Source: Pseudomonadota bacterium
GTDB taxonomy: Bacteria > Pseudomonadota > Alphaproteobacteria > Acetobacterales > Acetobacteraceae
Direction: 5' to 3'
Length of the DNA: 53,461 bases
Assembly (NCBI GenBank): GCA_021799015.1
Contig: JAJZBH010000001.1
Span: 1 to 53,461, forward strand
Translations under genes and position numbers: made by a program
The notes under the pieces: model-generated
The model's input: only the letters and a program-made list of their open reading frames with translations
Told to the model about the DNA's origin: nothing
Database searches by the model: none
Shown here: piece by piece, positions 11,747 through 47,279 of the stretch
Layout: every line of letters starts with the position of its first letter
How positions within the stretch are numbered: the stretch's first letter is position 1

Positions 11747-12628
11747 TCAATCAAACAGTACTCTGCCGCCTATGGCGTCGAGACGGCTGAGCAAAGCCGG
11801 ATCCCGCTCCGATGGCACGGTGATAATTGCATGATCCAGGGCATGATCACATCCAACGTGGCAATGTTGATGTTCAGCGCCCAAACTGGGAACAACGGCG
11901 CGTACCAAAGCCCGAGCGCGATCGGCGTTCCCGAGCAGGACTTTCACCACGTGCTCTACAGTCACAGCTTCGTGCTCATCATGCCAGCAATCGTAATCGG
12001 TCACCATCGCCACGGTCGCGTAACAAATCTCCGCCTCGCGTGCGAGTTTCGCCTCGGGCATGTTAGTCATGCCAATAACGGAGCATCCCCAGCTTCGATA
12101 GAGCTCGCTTTCCGCGCGTGTAGAAAACTGGGGTCCCTCCATGGCAAGATAGGTACCTCCACGGGTGAAAGGCAAATCCAGAGCGCGAGATGACGTCTCG
12201 AGAGCATCGCCGAGACTGGCACAAACCGGATTAGCCATCGAGACGTGGGCCACGCAGCCTGCACCGAAGAAACTCTTCACGCGCGCAAAGGTTCGATCAA
12301 TAAATTGATCGACAATAACGAAATGACCAGGCGGCAACTCCGCCCGAAGGCTGCCGACCGCCGAAAGGGACAGGATGTCGGTTACCCCGACACGCTTCAG
12401 CGCATCGATATTGGCCCTGAAATTGAGATCGGATGGCGGCACCCGGTGACCCCGGCCATGGCGCGGCAGGAAGACAACCTGCACCCCTGCCAGAGTGCCA
12501 AACAACAATTCGTCAGAAGGCTCGCCCCACGGTGTAGCAACATGTTCCCAATGCTGGTCGGAAAGGCCCTCAATATCATAGAGCCCCGAACCGCCGATAA
12601 TACCAACTACTCTGGCTTTCTGACTCAT
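11747..12628 (-). CDS. mtnP: S-methyl-5'-thioadenosine phosphorylase
   Basis: GIIGGSGLY, PRHGRGH, EGPQFSTRAES, GMTNMPEAKLAREAE and TDYDCW motifs. Confidence 0.95.
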   Translation of the reverse strand: MSQKARVVGIIGGSGLYDIEGLSDQHWEHVATPWGEPSDELLFGTLAGVQVVFLPRHGRGHRVPPSDLNFRANIDALKRVGVTDILSLSAVGSLRAELPPGHFVIVDQFIDRTFARVKSFFGAGCVAHVSMANPVCASLGDALETSSRALDLPFTRGGTYLAMEGPQFSTRAESELYRSWGCSVIGMTNMPEAKLAREAEICYATVAMVTDYDCWHDEHEAVTVEHVVKVLLGNADRARALVRAVVPSLGAEHQHCHVGCDHALDHAIITVPSERDPALLSRLDAIGGRVLFD

Positions 12629-13350
12629 CGTCCCCGCCCCGGGCGCAACGCAATGAAGCCGACCAACCAGAAAACCACGAGATAGATCATTGCCGTTAGC
12701 CCGACCAATTTCCGTTCATTCAAAGTGGGGTCCGCAGACCATGCAAGGAATGCAGTGACATCGTGTGCCATTTCGCCAACATCAGGCTTGACGCCATCCG
12801 CAAACGTGACGGAACCTTTCCTCAAGGCTGGGGCCATCGCAATTTGACCACCAGGATATGCTACATTGTAGTAATAGCCAGGGATCATCGCGACATCGGG
12901 GGGCGCATCTCGGTAACCGGTTAGCAGCGAGTAGAGGGCTTCCGGTCCGCCGCGCCGGGCCGCAACAGTCAAGGAGAGATCCGGGGCAACCACCGCACTC
13001 GCTGCACTACCACGGGAGTCCAATGCGCGCATCCGGTCGTCAGGCGTCACGGCCATTTTCTTTTTGCCTACCACGCGCTTAATTTTGCTTGTTAGCGCTA
13101 CGATCTCGGAACGGGAAAGACCAATTCCTCGGAGATCACGATAACGAATCAAACGCAATCCATGGCATTCCGCGCAATCGGCTTGGTACACCACAAAACC
13201 TTTCTGCAGGGTGGTGGTATCGAAACCGCCAAACGGCGCCTCGAATGGCCATGACTGATGATCGGCGGCAGCACGTGCGACAGGCAGTGCCACAAACAAA
13301 AGAACGATAAAGGCAGCGACACGATTCATCTTAATGCTCCACGCGGCCAT
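12625..13350 (-). CDS. petC: Cytochrome c1
   Basis: Signal peptide, W-x-F-x-x-P-F-G, heme motif CAECH, PDLSL, distal Met in GGQIAMAP, DVTAFLAW and a C-terminal anchor helix. Confidence 0.88.
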   Translation of the reverse strand: MAAWSIKMNRVAAFIVLLFVALPVARAAADHQSWPFEAPFGGFDTTTLQKGFVVYQADCAECHGLRLIRYRDLRGIGLSRSEIVALTSKIKRVVGKKKMAVTPDDRMRALDSRGSAASAVVAPDLSLTVAARRGGPEALYSLLTGYRDAPPDVAMIPGYYYNVAYPGGQIAMAPALRKGSVTFADGVKPDVGEMAHDVTAFLAWSADPTLNERKLVGLTAMIYLVVFWLVGFIALRPGRGR

Positions 13351-14524
13351 CGCCTTTGGTGCGGTTGCCTTCCAGTAAAGTGACGACAGGCGTGATCACG
13401 ACGAGAAAGGCAAACCAGTACAACGTGGCTAAATCTGCGATGATGGGCGAAAAGCGGTAGGCAGGCTCTGCCGCGGCGACTGACAGAATAATAAAATCGA
13501 GCCCAAACAGCCACACGAAAGATCGGAATACCGGGCCCGTTTTGACCGACCGATCACGTGTACGGTCGAGCCAGGGCATTGCACCAAGCAATAACACACT
13601 CCCTATAACCAGGTAAGCGCCACCGCGAACGTTCTGCGCCGCGCCGGCCAAACCTTGAAAAGCCAGAAGATACCATGGCAACGTGACTTGCAGTGGTATG
13701 GCAAGCGGGTCTGGCGGGATTGCGTTTAGTCTTGTCGAGCCCAGCCCGGGCGCGAAAGTGACCAACGCCGCACAGGCAAAGGCTAACAGGATCACACCGC
13801 TGAACAGGTTTCGATTATAATGGGTTCTTTGGACAGCCCAATCGTCGCGTTTGCCATTGTCGCCACCCCGCGACACGTGACGGACTGTCATGGTAAACAC
13901 CGCGACAACAACGAGCAGAAACCCGATCGCTATATGAGCCATGGCGACTCGCGATAACGTTGTCACGCCCACTGAATAGCCGCCGCGCAACGCCATGGCC
14001 AAACCCGGGCCAATAATCGGAAGCACCGCAAGATGCTGCGCCACGCCCGACAGTGAACCGAGGCTCCCAGCACCGCCAACCATGGCAAAGCCAAAGTATG
14101 CTACCGCCACAAGGGCAACGAGACGAAGCACCACAAGAATCCAAGCGAAAGCCCGCAGGCCACGATGGGCACCGCGACTTATTCCGTAAAAAATCTGCAA
14201 ATACACCGCGCCGAACAGCACCGCGGTACTGGCGCCGTGCAGATCCCGGATTAGCCAGCCGAAATTGACGTCGCGCATGATGTATTGCAGGGAGTTGAAG
14301 GCCGACGGGATTCCGGGACGGTAGAAGAAGCCGAGCCATATGCCTGAAATTGTGAGGACAAGCACGGCTACCCAGATCAACGCTTCCATCACGCCGAAGA
14401 CGCCCGCGGAAAGCGGGGCTGAAGCGGGGGACCGCCACCTATTAACGAAGGGGCACACGGACTCCCGTTGGCCTGGCCCCTCCGGCGCGGCGTCCGACTC
14501 CTTGCTGGCGAATGCTTTCTTCAT
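13331..14524 (-). CDS. petB: Cytochrome b homologue, divergent (heme bH ligands and PEWY motif missing)
   Basis: AFNSLQYIMRDVNFGWLIRDLH is clearly cytochrome b; also LPIIG, GGYSV and MPWLD; located between petA-like and petC genes. Confidence 0.85.
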   Translation of the reverse strand: MKKAFASKESDAAPEGPGQRESVCPFVNRWRSPASAPLSAGVFGVMEALIWVAVLVLTISGIWLGFFYRPGIPSAFNSLQYIMRDVNFGWLIRDLHGASTAVLFGAVYLQIFYGISRGAHRGLRAFAWILVVLRLVALVAVAYFGFAMVGGAGSLGSLSGVAQHLAVLPIIGPGLAMALRGGYSVGVTTLSRVAMAHIAIGFLLVVVAVFTMTVRHVSRGGDNGKRDDWAVQRTHYNRNLFSGVILLAFACAALVTFAPGLGSTRLNAIPPDPLAIPLQVTLPWYLLAFQGLAGAAQNVRGGAYLVIGSVLLLGAMPWLDRTRDRSVKTGPVFRSFVWLFGLDFIILSVAAAEPAYRFSPIIADLATLYWFAFLVVITPVVTLLEGNRTKGDGRVEH

Positions 14525-14528
14525 GACT

Positions 14529-15062
14529 TTAGCCCAATATGATTGTGTTCCGATCCGCGAACCGGTACGGCGGGATCTTCAGATTGCGTGCTGCAGCAGC
14601 GTTTAATGCTCGCCCCGCTGCATCGTATCTTGCGCCATTGCAGGGGTCATCGAAGCCATCCGGCGTCGCGACAACTTCGCAGCCGCTGGCGGGATCAACG
14701 GCAACCACAACGATGACGTTCGGCAGGCCCGGCGTAATGCGTGTTGCCAGCGAAACGGGCTGTCGCAAGCTTCGTGTGGGGATAGCCCGGAGCTGGTTCA
14801 TCTGTTGCTTTGTGAGATGGCGAATGATCACCGGGTTATCTCTCCAGATCACCACGTCGGTCTCGCCCGACTTCAGGCTGCCTAGCTCAACGGCGATGTG
14901 CGTCTCCGCCCTCGCGTTTTGATCAGGTCCGAGAGCCGCCCCAAAAATATACGCAAGCGCTCCGGCGGCTACCGCGGCCATGGCAACCATGAGGATCGTC
15001 GAAAATTTCATGGTTGCAGCCTCGCCCCCGTGGTCATGCGTGATTTCGGCCTCATCCATCAC
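14529..15062 (-). CDS. petA: Rieske-fold protein lacking [2Fe-2S] ligands (petA homologue)
   Basis: N-terminal TM helix, WRDNPVIIRH (cf. WRGKPVFIRH), GC...PC.G.RYDAAGR and NLKIPPYRF; first gene of the pet operon. Confidence 0.82.
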   Translation of the reverse strand: MMDEAEITHDHGGEAATMKFSTILMVAMAAVAAGALAYIFGAALGPDQNARAETHIAVELGSLKSGETDVVIWRDNPVIIRHLTKQQMNQLRAIPTRSLRQPVSLATRITPGLPNVIVVVAVDPASGCEVVATPDGFDDPCNGARYDAAGRALNAAAARNLKIPPYRFADRNTIILG

Positions 15063-15219: not shown

Positions 15220-16104
15220 ATGAACCGCCCCGTGACACCAGCCCGCCCCGAGCATGAGGCACTCAAAGCTGAGGTAAAAGCCTGGTTCGAGCAGCTGCGC
15301 GATTGTATCGGCGCCGCCTTCGAAGCAATCGAGCGCGATTATGACGGTCCATTGCGCCACAGGACGCCGGGCCGCTTCGCGTATTCCCATTGGGCGCGGG
15401 AATCCGGAGGAGGAGGCGTTACCGCCGTGATGCGTGGCCGCGTGTTCGAGAAAGTGGGCATCAATGTCTCAACGGTCTGGGGAACGTTCGACCCTGAATT
15501 TGGCAAGACAATCCGCGGGGCCGAGCAGGACCCGCGCTTTTGGGCCACGGGGATCAGCTTGGTGGCGCATATGCATAGCCCTCGCGTTCCCGCCGCACAT
15601 ATGAATACCCGGATGCTCGTAACGACCAAGGGCTGGTTTGGAGGGGGCGGCGACTTGACCCCTTTGCAACCAGGAACGGAAGCAGCTTGCGAAGACGCTG
15701 CAGCCTTCCACACCGCATTTCGCCATGCCTGCGATGCGCATCATCTAAATTATTACGAGAAGTACAGACAATGGTGTGACGACTACTTTTTTCTTCCGCA
15801 CCGCAACGAAATGCGGGGGGCCGGCGGGATCTTTTTTGATTATCTGGACTCCGGAGACCTGGCGGATGATTTTGCCTTCACCCGCGATGTCGGTCTCGCA
15901 TTTCTCGAATCCTATCCCGCAATTGTACGGCGGCGTATGAATGAGCGCTGGACCGAAGCGGAGCGCGAGGCTCAGCTGATCCGCCGAGGACGCTACGTTG
16001 AGTTCAATCTCCTTTATGATCGCGGCACAATATTTGGCCTGAAAACCGGAGGCAACGTTGAGGCGATTTTGATGAGCCTGCCACCCGAGGTTAAGTGGCC
16101 ATAG
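15220..16104 (+). CDS. hemF: Oxygen-dependent coproporphyrinogen III oxidase
   Basis: [44 protein letters not shown] and ILMSLPP motifs. Confidence 0.96.
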
Positions 16105-45179: not shown

Positions 45180-45221
45180 TTGACATGGATCAACGACGCT
45201 TTGGCCAATGTTCTGTATCTT
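45180..45221 (+). promoter_or_regulatory. FNR/FixK box plus -10 element (class II promoter) for the three-gene operon
   Basis: TTGAC-ATGG-ATCAA at 45180-45193. Centring it at -41.5 places TATCTT (45216-45221) exactly at -12 to -7. Confidence 0.72.
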
Positions 45222-45291
45222 ACGCCAAATCGCGAAGACCGCCACGCGCCGGCCGTTTGCTGGCATTGCTGTTGGGTCTGATGTTGTTGTC

Positions 45292-45804
45292 ATGCTTGGA
45301 AAAAAACGCGGCGCATCTATCACGGTTGTTGTTGGCCTCGTGGTCGCGGCGCTGGCGTGGCCTGATTCGATCCTGGCCCAGGCCACTTTGCAGCACAACT
45401 CCGCGTCGAGTCGGCAGGCGCTGTTTGGACGCTCATGGTGTGGCGACTATAAATTAGGTAATCTCACGGCCCGTCAGCGCCTTCAGGGAAAAAACCTGGC
45501 ACGTCTTCAGGCGGTGGAAGCACGGCTGGCGCCCGGCTTGGAGCCTGCCAATACAAACGAACTCCATCTTCTCTCCAATTACCAGGAGGAGCTGGAAAAG
45601 CGGCAGCCGGATCCGGTGTTGGCCGGAACATATCTGGGGTTGGCAAGTTCGTTGCCGATTACGCAACCGCTCTATCGTGATGTTAACAAGCTACTCTGCG
45701 TCAGCACGACCCACGCTCTCGGAAGCGCGATCCGCGCCGCTGCCGAAGCGGCGCGCAGGCCGGATAACGCGGCGTCAACTACAAACGGGAAAATCCACCA
45801 ATGA
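45292..45804 (+). CDS. Exported hypothetical protein (170 aa)
   Basis: Sec-type signal MLGKKRGASITVVVGLVVAALAWPDSILA|Q; two Cys; ATGA overlap with the next gene. The ORF-track start at 45208 would fall inside the predicted promoter. Confidence 0.7.
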   Translation: MLGKKRGASITVVVGLVVAALAWPDSILAQATLQHNSASSRQALFGRSWCGDYKLGNLTARQRLQGKNLARLQAVEARLAPGLEPANTNELHLLSNYQEELEKRQPDPVLAGTYLGLASSLPITQPLYRDVNKLLCVSTTHALGSAIRAAAEAARRPDNAASTTNGKIHQ

Positions 45805-46340
45805 AAAGCCGTTTCGCCTTGACGACAGGGTCAGTCGACGTCGGGCGCAGGTGCTTCGTTAGAGTCTTGGGCGCTTTTTCGCTGCTGCTGGTGCTGCCTG
45901 GTGCCAGCTTTGCACAGGAGCACAGCGGCGGCGAGTCAGGCGCGCACGGCGAGGGAGAGGCGGGTGCCGGCGCCGGGCACGGGAATGGCGCCGGAGAAGG
46001 GCACGGTGGCGGACACGGTGAGGGTGAAGGGGGCGGTGGCGGACACGGCGAGGGTGAAGCCGGCGGCGGCGGCATGGGTCAGGGCAAAACTCCTGCGCAA
46101 CGTGCCGTTCGCCACCGGCAGCGTACAGGTCGGACGATGGGCGGTGGCGAGTCCAACGGCGGGCATACAGGGACCGGCGACGCCGGAGCTGGGGAAACCA
46201 CCACGTCCACTGGATCCACGGCTCTTCCGTCCGATGGTGCAACGACAGGGCCGATTGGAGGCGACACCGGTGGCGAACACTTTGTCCACCAGGGCCAAGG
46301 GCCGTGGGGCGCTGACACGAAGGTCCTTCGGCGCAAATGA
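45801..46340 (+). CDS. Tat-exported Gly/His/Glu-rich low-complexity protein (179 aa)
   Basis: GRRCFV twin-arginine motif, hydrophobic core and SFA|Q cleavage site; HGEGE repeats; translationally coupled to the previous gene. Confidence 0.72.
   Translation: MKSRFALTTGSVDVGRRCFVRVLGAFSLLLVLPGASFAQEHSGGESGAHGEGEAGAGAGHGNGAGEGHGGGHGEGEGGGGGHGEGEAGGGGMGQGKTPAQRAVRHRQRTGRTMGGGESNGGHTGTGDAGAGETTTSTGSTALPSDGATTGPIGGDTGGEHFVHQGQGPWGADTKVLRRK
46004..46059 (+). repeat. 30-nt-period tandem repeat encoding GGGHGEGE units
   Basis: CGGTGGCGGACACGGTGAGGGTGAAG (46004-46029) and CGGTGGCGGACACGGCGAGGGTGAAG (46034-46059), one mismatch. Confidence 0.85.
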
Positions 46341-46382
46341 GCCGGTGTTCATACCTTGCAACATAAGAAAAGGAATCTGCAC

Positions 46383-47279
46383 ATGACCCAGAGAAAGAAA
46401 TCAACGTCGGCAGTTAGGCGAATCCTGTTGGGTTCTGCCGCCGTGGGCATCGCAGCCTGGATGCCGCAACCAGTGTGGTCGCCGCTTCACGGGGTTGGAT
46501 ACGCCTATGCCCAAGGCACCCAACAAGGCGGCGGCGGTTCTGCTACCCATGGCAGCGGAAGTGGCGGCGGCCACGCCCCCGGTACGGCAGGATCGGGGAT
46601 GGGCCGCGGCGGCTCAAGCGCCGTGCATGGTCACTATGGGCAAGGGGGGTCCACTGGTACCGAGACAGGTGAAACGGAACCCAGTAGCGACAAGAAGGGA
46701 CCGCGTTATGGCGGTGGGGAAACCAGCCGCCAGCCTGGGGAAGGCACGACTGGTGGCCGGCCCGTCTGGGCAAAGGAAGGAATTCCGGAAGTTGAACTCG
46801 GACGGCTGAGCGTGGCCCGTTCGCCTGCGTCGGTGCTCAATCACGCCTTCGACGAAGTGGTGAGCAACTGGTCGACAACGGGTACAACAATACTAACGCT
46901 GACGGCCGAGGGTCAGCCAACACTGACCATGACCGTGTCCGAACTTTATTCACTGCCGGCCCTCGAATTCGCTCGCATTGTGGAAACGTATTATTCCACG
47001 GTCGTGCGTATTGACTCGCCGCTTGAAAACCTTGCGCTTCTTAAGAATCTCGGACAGACGGGCACGACTCCCCTAACCGGTGTAACAATGGCCAGCTCAG
47101 ATGACATGGCCGCCATCTTGCTGGGATCAGCTTCCGATAAGGAAATTCCGATCACGACGGATACGGTTACAGCCGTATACACGATTCTTGGCATTCCAGT
47201 CCCGTCCGGAACCGAACTGACGACCGTCGCCAACGAGGCGGAGGCAGTTCGGGTCGCAATCCTGGCAGGTCACGGATAG
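46383..47279 (+). CDS. Exported hypothetical protein with Tat-like signal, Gly/His-rich linker and conserved-looking helical C-domain (298 aa)
   Basis: AAGGA RBS before the ATG at 46383; VRRILL...AYA|Q; domain GRPVWAKEGIPEVELGRLSVARSP...RIDSPLENLALL...LGSASDK...ILAGHG. Confidence 0.8.
   Translation: MTQRKKSTSAVRRILLGSAAVGIAAWMPQPVWSPLHGVGYAYAQGTQQGGGGSATHGSGSGGGHAPGTAGSGMGRGGSSAVHGHYGQGGSTGTETGETEPSSDKKGPRYGGGETSRQPGEGTTGGRPVWAKEGIPEVELGRLSVARSPASVLNHAFDEVVSNWSTTGTTILTLTAEGQPTLTMTVSELYSLPALEFARIVETYYSTVVRIDSPLENLALLKNLGQTGTTPLTGVTMASSDDMAAILLGSASDKEIPITTDTVTAVYTILGIPVPSGTELTTVANEAEAVRVAILAGHG

What the first reader, a model, noticed from the sequence alone, without database searches (positions are those of the whole stretch)
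13331..14524. Cytochrome b predicted to be mono-heme: bL ligands kept, both bH ligands and the Qo motif lost
Seen: in helix B the His at 14237-14239 is kept but the +14 position is Gln (14195-14197; YLQIF for YLHIF). In helix D the His at 13934-13936 is kept but +14 is Thr (13892-13894), while the +19 Qi-site His is retained. PEWY reads LPWY (13670-13681), and LPWGQMSFWG reads MVGGAGSLGS. Known: the two +14 histidines ligate heme bH. Inference: there is no transmembrane electron path and a single periplasm-side heme remains. Loss of exactly the two ligands of the same heme suggests selection.
Basis: partly seen in the sequence, partly recalled or inferred. Interest (0 to 1): 0.75.

Follow-up and report, generated by a model that had tools for sequence, protein, structure and literature searches.

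The report
Hollowed-out complex III kept as scaffold
This acid-mine bacterium's only respiratory complex III has lost the binding residues for its inner haem and for its iron-sulfur cluster, a loss already reported for its genus, yet its membrane core is still conserved by selection and likely serves as a structural scaffold rather than an electron pump.

Summary
Observation confirmed. The gene is the only petB found in an Acidiphilium-type genome, at the normal hemF–petABC–mtnP locus. It keeps both haem-bL histidines (H96, H197) and has Q110 and T211 at the bH positions. The same holds in 17 of 17 genus copies; 93 of 93 outside controls keep all four histidines. The loss is already published (Degli Esposti 2014, 2023).

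The Rieske partner has lost all four cluster ligands and its twin-arginine signal, and the Qi aspartate is gone. The 'retained' Qi histidine is probably a reversion (Arg in 13 of 17).

Not seen in the papers I read:
- purifying selection on petB (dN/dS 0.13–0.57, all intervals below 1);
- a 47–73-residue Rieske membrane-anchor-only gene in all 9 genomes lacking the Rieske head;
- an intact Rieske in 4 genomes, so bH was lost first;
- clean deletion of the operon in 1 genome.

Best reading: a Q-cycle-dead complex kept as a scaffold, with bL kept for folding (about 0.5). Rival: a rebuilt periplasm-side electron module. The scan earlier noted bH-less cytochromes b on other DNA, but with a second two-haem partner, which is not found here.

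The parts
13331..14524 (-). petB: cytochrome b, full 8-helix fold, bL ligands only
   Evidence: pLDDT 86; TM 0.82-0.90 to most solved cytochromes b listed
14237..14239 (-). H96, haem bL ligand in helix B, kept in 17 of 17 genus copies
13934..13936 (-). H197, haem bL ligand in helix D, kept in 17 of 17
14195..14197 (-). Q110 at the helix-B bH ligand position (E, Q, T, D, A or G in the genus; His in 0 of 17)
13892..13894 (-). T211 at the helix-D bH ligand position (T or G in the genus; His in 0 of 17)
13877..13879 (-). H216 at the Qi His position; Arg in 13 of 17, likely a reversion
   Evidence: helix-D block of Fig. S1B
14054..14083 (-). Rebuilt start of the cd1 helix of the Qo site (canonical W, Q, M, W columns kept in 0 of 17)
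13670..13681 (-). LPWY at the Qo motif (Pro for Glu in 17 of 17; PPWY in 10 of 17)
14123..14125 (-). R134, a new genus-invariant arginine in helix C on the former bH side; a Glu sits at one of the two former bH-packing glycine positions (47 or 131) in 16 of 17
14033..14035 (-). H164, a new near-invariant histidine (16 of 17; Leu in 92 of 93 controls) in the cd1 helix
14529..15062 (-). petA: full-length Rieske protein without cluster ligands and without a twin-arginine motif; dN/dS 0.09-0.17 in three pairs
14679..14696 (-). Rieske box I: ligand Cys to Asp, His to Ala; disulfide Cys kept
14631..14648 (-). Rieske box II: ligand Cys to Asp, His to Asn; disulfide Cys kept
14928..15005 (-). Rieske membrane anchor, the only part of petA kept in all 17 operons; predicted to pack on the ab loop of cytochrome b and on the c1 anchor
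12625..13350 (-). petC: cytochrome c1 (likely start 13329) with CxxCH at 13162-13176 and the distal Met at 12835-12837
15220..16104 (+). hemF, upstream divergent neighbour marking the ancestral pet locus
11747..12628 (-). mtnP, downstream neighbour overlapping the petC stop codon

Best explanation
The gene is the cytochrome b of a complex III that has lost its inner-haem and iron-sulfur ligands, so it cannot run the Q cycle, and it is likely kept as a three-subunit membrane scaffold in which haem bL likely remains because folding and assembly need it. Shown: the ligand losses, the intact frames, purifying selection, and retention of the Rieske membrane anchor even where the Rieske head is deleted. 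Predicted: the normal fold, and anchor-b-c1 assembly. Inferred: quinol is oxidised by bd-type quinol oxidases; cytochrome c for the aa3 oxidase is reduced by periplasmic donors (Cyc2-like porin cytochromes, thiosulfate and other dehydrogenases); the dead complex helps to stabilise or organise complex I and/or IV, as proposed by Degli Esposti 2023 from Paracoccus data. A likely reason why bH went first is the steep pH gradient of an acidophile, which would stall or reverse a Q cycle; this is arithmetic on assumed values.
For: (1) Every step of the Q cycle is broken in this genome: bH His pair, Qi Asp, cd1 helix and Rieske ligands. No second cytochrome b was found in 5 of 5 genomes searched with PF00033, one of them a single contig. 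(2) petB dN/dS is 0.13-0.57 in 11 genome pairs (not independent), with every bootstrap interval below 1; this genome's cluster-less petA has 0.10-0.17. (3) All 9 genomes without a Rieske head keep a 47-73 aa anchor-only ORF abutting petB. These score above 200 shuffles each on a canonical Rieske-N profile (0 of 200 in 8, 1 of 200 in 1) and have pooled dN/dS 0.22 (0.12-0.40) over three independent pairs. A cofactor-free helix is most simply read as structural. (4) The fold is intact. This genome's anchor is predicted to bind b plus c1 (score 0.79, best control 0.02; mark reached by 116 of 157 solved and 2 of 215 mismatched pairs; runs agree in at least 89% of contacts; partner pLDDT at least 69; the pass may come from likeness to solved bc1). 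Four of the 11 predicted contact residues on b are genus-invariant against 42 of 370 overall (nominal p 0.026). (5) In yeast, the bH-ligand mutant still binds haem at bL whereas the bL mutant binds almost none (PMC4033779, passages), so keeping bL alone is what a folding constraint predicts. (6) Bypasses exist: bd oxidase in 17 of 18 genomes, and both loci of this genome fall just past contig ends; Cyc2-like genes in 16 of 18; an aa3 operon here. (7) In a cultured Acidiphilium strain, petB and petC are transcribed (logCPM 7.6 and 6.4; PMC7142476 supplement).
Against: One 99%-complete genome (G008) has deleted the whole operon cleanly (hemF and mtnP 140 bp apart) yet keeps three NuoD and three COX1 genes, so the scaffold is not indispensable. 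No partner complex has been shown to depend on it. New genus-invariant polar residues (D94, R134, H164 in 16 of 17), and a His at or beside the c1 Met position in all 5 copies that lost the Met (read by eye), suit a remodelled function as well as a scaffold. Four genomes keep a ligand-complete Rieske. petB evolves 1.0-3.2 times as fast as hemF+mtnP in the genus against 0.24-0.66 times in outgroup pairs, so constraint is much relaxed.
Confidence: 0.5

Rival explanations
1. Rebuilt periplasm-side electron module. The genus ancestor cut the transmembrane wire and rebuilt the Qo pocket, so that quinol (or cytochrome c1) exchanges electrons with haem bL and a periplasmic acceptor such as soluble cytochrome c or Fe3+. 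This would be a linear, non-Q-cycle link releasing two protons per quinol. It may survive in full only in the four genomes with a complete Rieske.
For: bH loss lies on the long genus stem and precedes Rieske loss: a complete Rieske is present in basal G004/G012 and nested G017/G011, and one clade of the 13 Rieske-defective copies is rejected (AU p 0.031). PPWY is a low-pH Qo variant in working Acidithiobacillus bc1. New conserved H164, M148, H290 (10 of 17) and D94 lie on the periplasmic side. 11 of 18 genomes have reaction-centre genes, 10 of them with a defective Rieske, so they need some quinol-to-cytochrome c route. With assumed values, a Q cycle at outside pH 3 needs a cytochrome c near +500-580 mV and a linear step only about +330 mV.
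Against: In this genome and 12 others no iron-sulfur relay remains, and bL and c1 are too far apart for direct transfer in canonical structures (recalled). The quinol-binding cd1 residues are lost in all 17. H290 is Gln here. No activity data were found in the searches made.
Confidence: 0.25
2. Slow decay. The operon has no positive role and is being lost piece by piece. Frames and membrane helices persist only because misfolded membrane proteins or uncoupled translation of mtnP are harmful.
For: There is a graded series: complete Rieske (4), ligand-less (4), anchor only (9), c1 Met lost (5), whole operon deleted (1). Rates are several-fold faster than in outgroups. The petC stop overlaps the mtnP start.
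Against: No frameshift or stop appears in any of the 17 petB matches. dN/dS is well below 1 on petB, on this genome's petA and on the anchor stubs. There are 42 invariant columns at about 40% pairwise identity, including new ones. G008 shows that clean deletion with mtnP intact is available, yet it occurred in only 1 of 18.
Confidence: 0.15
3. The one-haem protein pairs with a second, two-haem cytochrome b in an asymmetric complex III, as earlier scan notes proposed for bH-less cytochromes b in other phyla; or it has a non-respiratory role such as haem or redox sensing.
For: The same His pattern (bL kept, bH lost) appears in seven earlier AI notes.
Against: Only one PF00033 gene was found in each of 5 genomes searched, one petB match per genus genome, and none further by tblastn here. 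The locus is the ordinary petABC between hemF and mtnP. Nothing points to a sensor partner.
Confidence: 0.05

Closest known systems
'Deranged' bc1 complex of acidophilic Acetobacteraceae (Acidiphilium, Acidocella); Degli Esposti et al. 2023, PMC10715153; first noted in PMC4986455
   Same: Both bH histidines lost; Rieske without cluster ligands but with the disulfide pair (described there for Acidocella); c1 intact here; co-occurs with an aa3 oxidase and Cyc2-like genes; structural role proposed.
   Different: The paper says Acidiphilium lacks the ISP gene and that bH loss is always joined to ISP damage. Here 9 genomes keep an anchor-only petA, 4 a ligand-less full-length one and 4 a ligand-complete one (its Fig. 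S9 does list one Acidiphilium Rieske). The c1 Met is lost in 5 of 16. The parts read report no selection test.
Canonical alphaproteobacterial/mitochondrial cytochrome b of bc1 (Rhodobacter, Paracoccus PetB)
   Same: Fold (TM 0.82-0.90 for most hits), operon, bL ligands and glycines, ab loop, LPWLD region.
   Different: No bH ligands, no Qi aspartate, cd1 helix rebuilt, partner Rieske without cluster; about 30% identity.
Laboratory bH-ligand mutants (yeast H197F, PMC4033779) and the antimycin-blocked complex
   Same: One haem at bL, no transmembrane electron transfer.
   Different: Those keep Qo and the Rieske cluster; this natural form has lost them as well.
Acidithiobacillus bc1 with PPWY, and Pyrobaculum cytochrome b lacking one bH His (PMC4122944)
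   Same: Pro for Glu in the Qo motif in an acidophile; natural loss of a bH ligand.
   Different: The Acidithiobacillus enzyme is a working, biochemically studied bc1; Pyrobaculum loses one ligand in an archaeal lineage. Both are independent origins.

Membership tests
Cytochrome b of a Q-cycle bc1 complex | PF00033 + PF00032 domains, eight-helix fold | tested here: met
Cytochrome b of a Q-cycle bc1 complex | Encoded in petABC with Rieske and c1 | tested here: met
Cytochrome b of a Q-cycle bc1 complex | Two His ligands of haem bL | tested here: met
   H96, H197
Cytochrome b of a Q-cycle bc1 complex | Two His ligands of haem bH | tested here: not met
   Q110, T211; 0 of 17 in the genus, 93 of 93 in controls
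Cytochrome b of a Q-cycle bc1 complex | Qo site (cd1 helix WGQMSxW, ef-loop motif) | tested here: not met
   cd1 W, Q, M, W kept in 0 of 17; xPWY alone is a tolerated variant
Cytochrome b of a Q-cycle bc1 complex | Qi site His and Asp | tested here: not met
   H216 present but 4 of 17; Asp replaced by L240, 0 of 17
Cytochrome b of a Q-cycle bc1 complex | Partner Rieske with 2 Cys + 2 His cluster ligands | tested here: not met
   all four replaced; below the TIGR01416 cut-off
Cytochrome b of a Q-cycle bc1 complex | Haem content and quinol:cytochrome c reductase activity | not testable with these tools
   needs purified protein
Deranged bc1 of acidophilic Acetobacteraceae | Both bH His lost, bL His kept | tested here: met
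Deranged bc1 of acidophilic Acetobacteraceae | Rieske absent or lacking 3-4 ligands with the disulfide Cys kept | tested here: met
Deranged bc1 of acidophilic Acetobacteraceae | Cytochrome c1 with CxxCH and distal Met | tested here: met
Deranged bc1 of acidophilic Acetobacteraceae | Host in Acidiphilium/Acidocella | tested here: met
   a 40%-identical homologue is labelled Acidiphilium sp.; genus helix-D pattern matches the Acidiphilium rows of Fig. S1B; holders are mostly mine drainage and tailings metagenomes
Deranged bc1 of acidophilic Acetobacteraceae | Quinol oxidase bypass in the same genome | tested here: inconclusive
   bd not assembled here, both loci end at contig ends; two copies in each of the two nearest genomes
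Deranged bc1 of acidophilic Acetobacteraceae | Structural role for complex I | not testable with these tools
   proposed in the paper, untested; G008 keeps complex I genes without pet
Asymmetric complex III with a second two-haem cytochrome b (earlier scan notes) | Second cytochrome b with both haems and an Fe-S tail nearby | tested here: not met

The most novel reading that the evidence does not exclude
Acidiphilium did not merely break complex III but rebuilt it for life at pH 3: it removed haem bH first, plugged the cavity with a new Arg/Glu pair, remodelled the Qo crater around new histidines, and in most lineages cut the Rieske protein down to a membrane-anchor microprotein. What is left is a one-haem, periplasm-side module that passes electrons between quinol and an acid-periplasm carrier (cytochrome c or Fe3+). 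It would be the missing link for the genus's zinc-bacteriochlorophyll photosynthesis and ferric-iron reduction.
Probability: 0.15. Interest if true: 0.85.

Novelty: new member of a known kind. Interest (0 to 1): 0.4.

Why it matters
The histidine loss is in print, so the finding itself is not new. The open question is why a whole genus of acid-mine bacteria keeps a dead complex III, and how those with reaction centres and cytochrome c oxidase move electrons from quinol to cytochrome c. The genus now offers a natural deletion series: complete Rieske, ligand-less, anchor-only, none. With cultured strains, this makes the long-argued structural role of complex III in respiratory supercomplexes directly testable apart from catalysis. 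The anchor-only petA genes are barely detected by the family libraries tried and correct a published statement that Acidiphilium lacks the gene.

Tried and rejected
- First AlphaFold run on a 10-row alignment: pLDDT 41, discarded; repeated with 109 rows.
- The family-wide search (274 of 301 genomes with a match) gave no sequences, so I did not score ligand states outside genus g1 and did not examine Acidocella myself; for it I rely on the paper.
- A dN/dS control on canonical petB pairs was uninformative: synonymous sites saturate (median 0.38 over 1220 pairs; the nearest pairs 0.00-0.02). I used tree-distance ratios instead. The same saturation would inflate the genus values, so they are upper-leaning.
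- Region-wise dN/dS showed overlapping intervals and no clear periplasm-versus-cytoplasm contrast.
- 'No quinol oxidase in this genome, so the complex must be active' was rejected: assembly gaps.
- Alternative complex III: one NrfD-family gene here, no pentahaem cytochrome among the CxxCH ORFs; in two relatives the gene lies about 5 kb from a NuoD-like large subunit, so it is read as hydrogenase-linked. Context not examined here.
- No RNA holder listed.
- No earlier notes on this genome.
- A paper search for headless Rieske anchors found nothing (six terms all required, so a weak search).

Full report
Observation. The ORF at 13331-14524 (-) encodes a 397-residue cytochrome b. Contigs of another study cover these codons without a difference, and a third study holds the operon in one piece with substitutions only, so this is not an assembly error.

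Context. The gene is the middle of petA (14529-15062), petB and petC (12625-13350), between hemF and mtnP. Outgroup Acetobacteraceae loci have the same neighbours. It is the only petB found in this 94%-complete genome. A 40%-identical homologue is labelled Acidiphilium sp., and holders are mostly mine drainage and tailings metagenomes. The Rieske partner has lost all four cluster ligands while keeping the two disulfide cysteines, and it has no twin-arginine motif; c1 keeps CxxCH and its Met.

Distribution. Of 18 genomes in the genus, 17 have petB, one copy each and without internal stops. All 17 keep both bL His and lack both bH His; 93 of 93 outside sequences keep all four. Of 100 columns at least 97% conserved in those controls, 22 are kept in all 17 and 26 are lost in all 17. 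The kept set includes H96, H197, G61 and G145 (the glycines' role in packing bL is recalled). The lost set includes both bH His, the W, Q, M and W of the cd1 helix, and the Qi aspartate. The Qi His is Arg in 13 of 17, including the basal pair, so H216 here is probably a reversion. New invariant residues appear: D94, R134, G201, G291, and H164 in 16 of 17.

Rieske series. Four genomes keep all four ligands and the twin arginines (G004, G011, G012, G017), with Ser-to-Ala and Tyr-to-Phe changes of the kind that lower the cluster potential (Tyr case, Ser recalled). Four have a full-length ligand-less protein (G000, G002, G003, G007). The other nine have only a 47-73 residue ORF, the membrane anchor, ending at the petB start. 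These stubs beat shuffles on a canonical profile (0 of 200 in eight, 1 of 200 in one). Family libraries see them only weakly: Pfam 2 of 9, below cut-off; NCBIfam 2 of 4 tried. G008 has deleted the operon: hemF and mtnP are 140 bp apart. Trees of hemF+mtnP and of petB, rooted on an Azospirillum locus, put bH loss on the long genus stem and place Rieske-complete genomes both basally and nested (G008 not included). A single clade of the 13 Rieske-defective copies is rejected (AU p 0.031; 17 genus rows plus 4 of the 13 outgroup rows; group defined by the trait but after I had seen a tree). So bH was lost first and the cluster at least twice afterwards, barring re-acquisition.

Selection. petB dN/dS is 0.13-0.57 in 11 non-independent pairs with all intervals below 1, against 0.05-0.24 for hemF and mtnP. 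This genome's cluster-less petA gives 0.10-0.17, and the stubs 0.22 (0.12-0.40). Relative to hemF+mtnP, petB evolves 1.0-3.2 times as fast in six genus pairs and 0.24-0.66 times in five outgroup pairs. The gene is constrained, but much less than a working cytochrome b. A direct dN/dS control on canonical pairs failed through saturation.

Structure. With 109 rows AlphaFold gives pLDDT 86, weakest at the N-terminus and the de loop on the cytoplasmic side, and it matches solved cytochromes b. The anchor of this genome's Rieske is predicted to bind b plus c1 (0.79 against best control 0.02; 116 of 157 solved and 2 of 215 mismatched pairs reach the mark; contact agreement at least 89%, partner pLDDT at least 69). 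This may be memory of solved bc1. The predicted contacts on b are more conserved in the genus than the rest of the protein.

Rest of the chain. This genome has an aa3-type operon as its only haem-copper oxidase found, complex I genes, two Cyc2-like genes (named from a recalled motif, no NCBIfam match) and no reaction-centre genes found. bd oxidase was not found, but both loci lie just beyond contig ends and the two nearest genomes have two copies each. Eleven of 18 genomes have reaction-centre genes, ten of them with a defective Rieske.

Mechanism. A Q cycle is excluded by sequence. I favour (0.5) a catalytically dead three-subunit scaffold. The parts kept everywhere are the membrane helices, the cofactor-free Rieske anchor, haem bL and the covalent c haem. 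In yeast the bH mutant still takes up bL while the bL mutant takes up almost no haem (PMC4033779, passages). Against this stand G008 and the new conserved polar residues. The main rival (0.25) is a rebuilt periplasm-side electron link. PPWY is a low-pH Qo variant (PMC4122944, passages and section 13). Arithmetic with assumed values (quinone +90 mV at pH 7, inside pH 6.5) shows a Q cycle at outside pH 3 needing a cytochrome c near +500-580 mV but a linear step only about +330 mV. Here, though, the iron-sulfur relay is gone. Plain decay (0.15) fits the graded series but not the selection. The asymmetric two-cytochrome-b complex of earlier scan notes does not apply.

Literature. Degli Esposti et al. 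2023 (PMC10715153: abstract, passages, sections 16 and 17, supplement passages and part 3 of 4) report loss of both bH histidines in Acidiphilium and Acidocella and the ligand-less Rieske with its disulfide. They propose a structural role for complex I, citing Stroh 2004 (seen only as a reference title), and a Cyc2 bypass. Degli Esposti 2014 (PMC4986455, one passage) already called the Acidiphilium protein degenerate. The alignment pictures of Fig. S8C and S10B, Table S2 and the cited Li et al. 2020 paper were not seen and may bear on the Rieske and c1 claims. In the parts read I saw no mention of anchor-only petA genes or of selection tests; searches gave no functional study. A transcriptome of Acidiphilium sp. 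C61 lists petB and petC as expressed, and also the hypothetical gene numbered just before petB, which may be a stub (not verified; PMC7142476, passages and supplement rows). PMC12654162, PMC7908018, PMC8790237 and PMC8361435 were seen as passages only and added little.

Verdict. A real feature, and a new member of a described kind. Interest is moderate because the function is unresolved and the genus provides a natural deletion series for testing it.

Noticed in passing
L132:6186-6392, L133:6949-7155, L134:6015-6215, L135:6990-7208, L136:7684-7902, L137:7562-7717, L138:6515-6655, L130:6617-6772, L131:2466-2621: Rieske membrane-anchor-only microproteins (47-73 aa) directly upstream of petB in all nine genomes without a Rieske head; under purifying selection.
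   Followed up: yes
L004, L005, L014, L017 (petA): Ligand-complete Rieske with twin arginines and potential-lowering Ser-to-Ala and Tyr-to-Phe changes beside a bH-less, PPWY cytochrome b: the best candidates for a living linear quinol:cytochrome c enzyme.
   Followed up: partly
L008, L010, L011, L013, L016 (petC): The cytochrome c1 distal Met is lost with large deletions in the haem domain; a His lies at or beside that position in all five (read by eye), suggesting bis-His c1.
   Followed up: partly
window 14123-14125, 14384-14386, 14132-14134: Invariant new Arg134 with a Glu at position 47 or 131 in 16 of 17 copies (probably one swap on the tree): a possible buried ion pair filling the empty bH cavity.
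   Followed up: partly
G008:C17:81434-83315 (L146, L148): petABC cleanly deleted between hemF and mtnP in a 99%-complete genome that keeps three NuoD and three COX1 genes.
   Followed up: yes
G000:C87:12810-14669 (L144:4850-6673) and G000:C82:7617-9098: Two Cyc2-like porin-cytochrome genes, one followed by a c2-like cytochrome; homologues in 16 of 18 genus genomes.
   Followed up: partly
G000:C1:22182-23749: Two adjacent dihaem cytochrome c genes resembling thiosulfate dehydrogenase TsdBA (recalled resemblance), a possible donor to cytochrome c oxidase.
   Followed up: no
G000:C70 start and C106 end: Both bd-oxidase loci are cut by contig ends in this assembly.
   Followed up: yes
window 45208-47279: Three adjacent ORFs on the + strand with signal-like N-termini; two are rich in Gly, His and Glu repeats; function not examined.
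   Followed up: no
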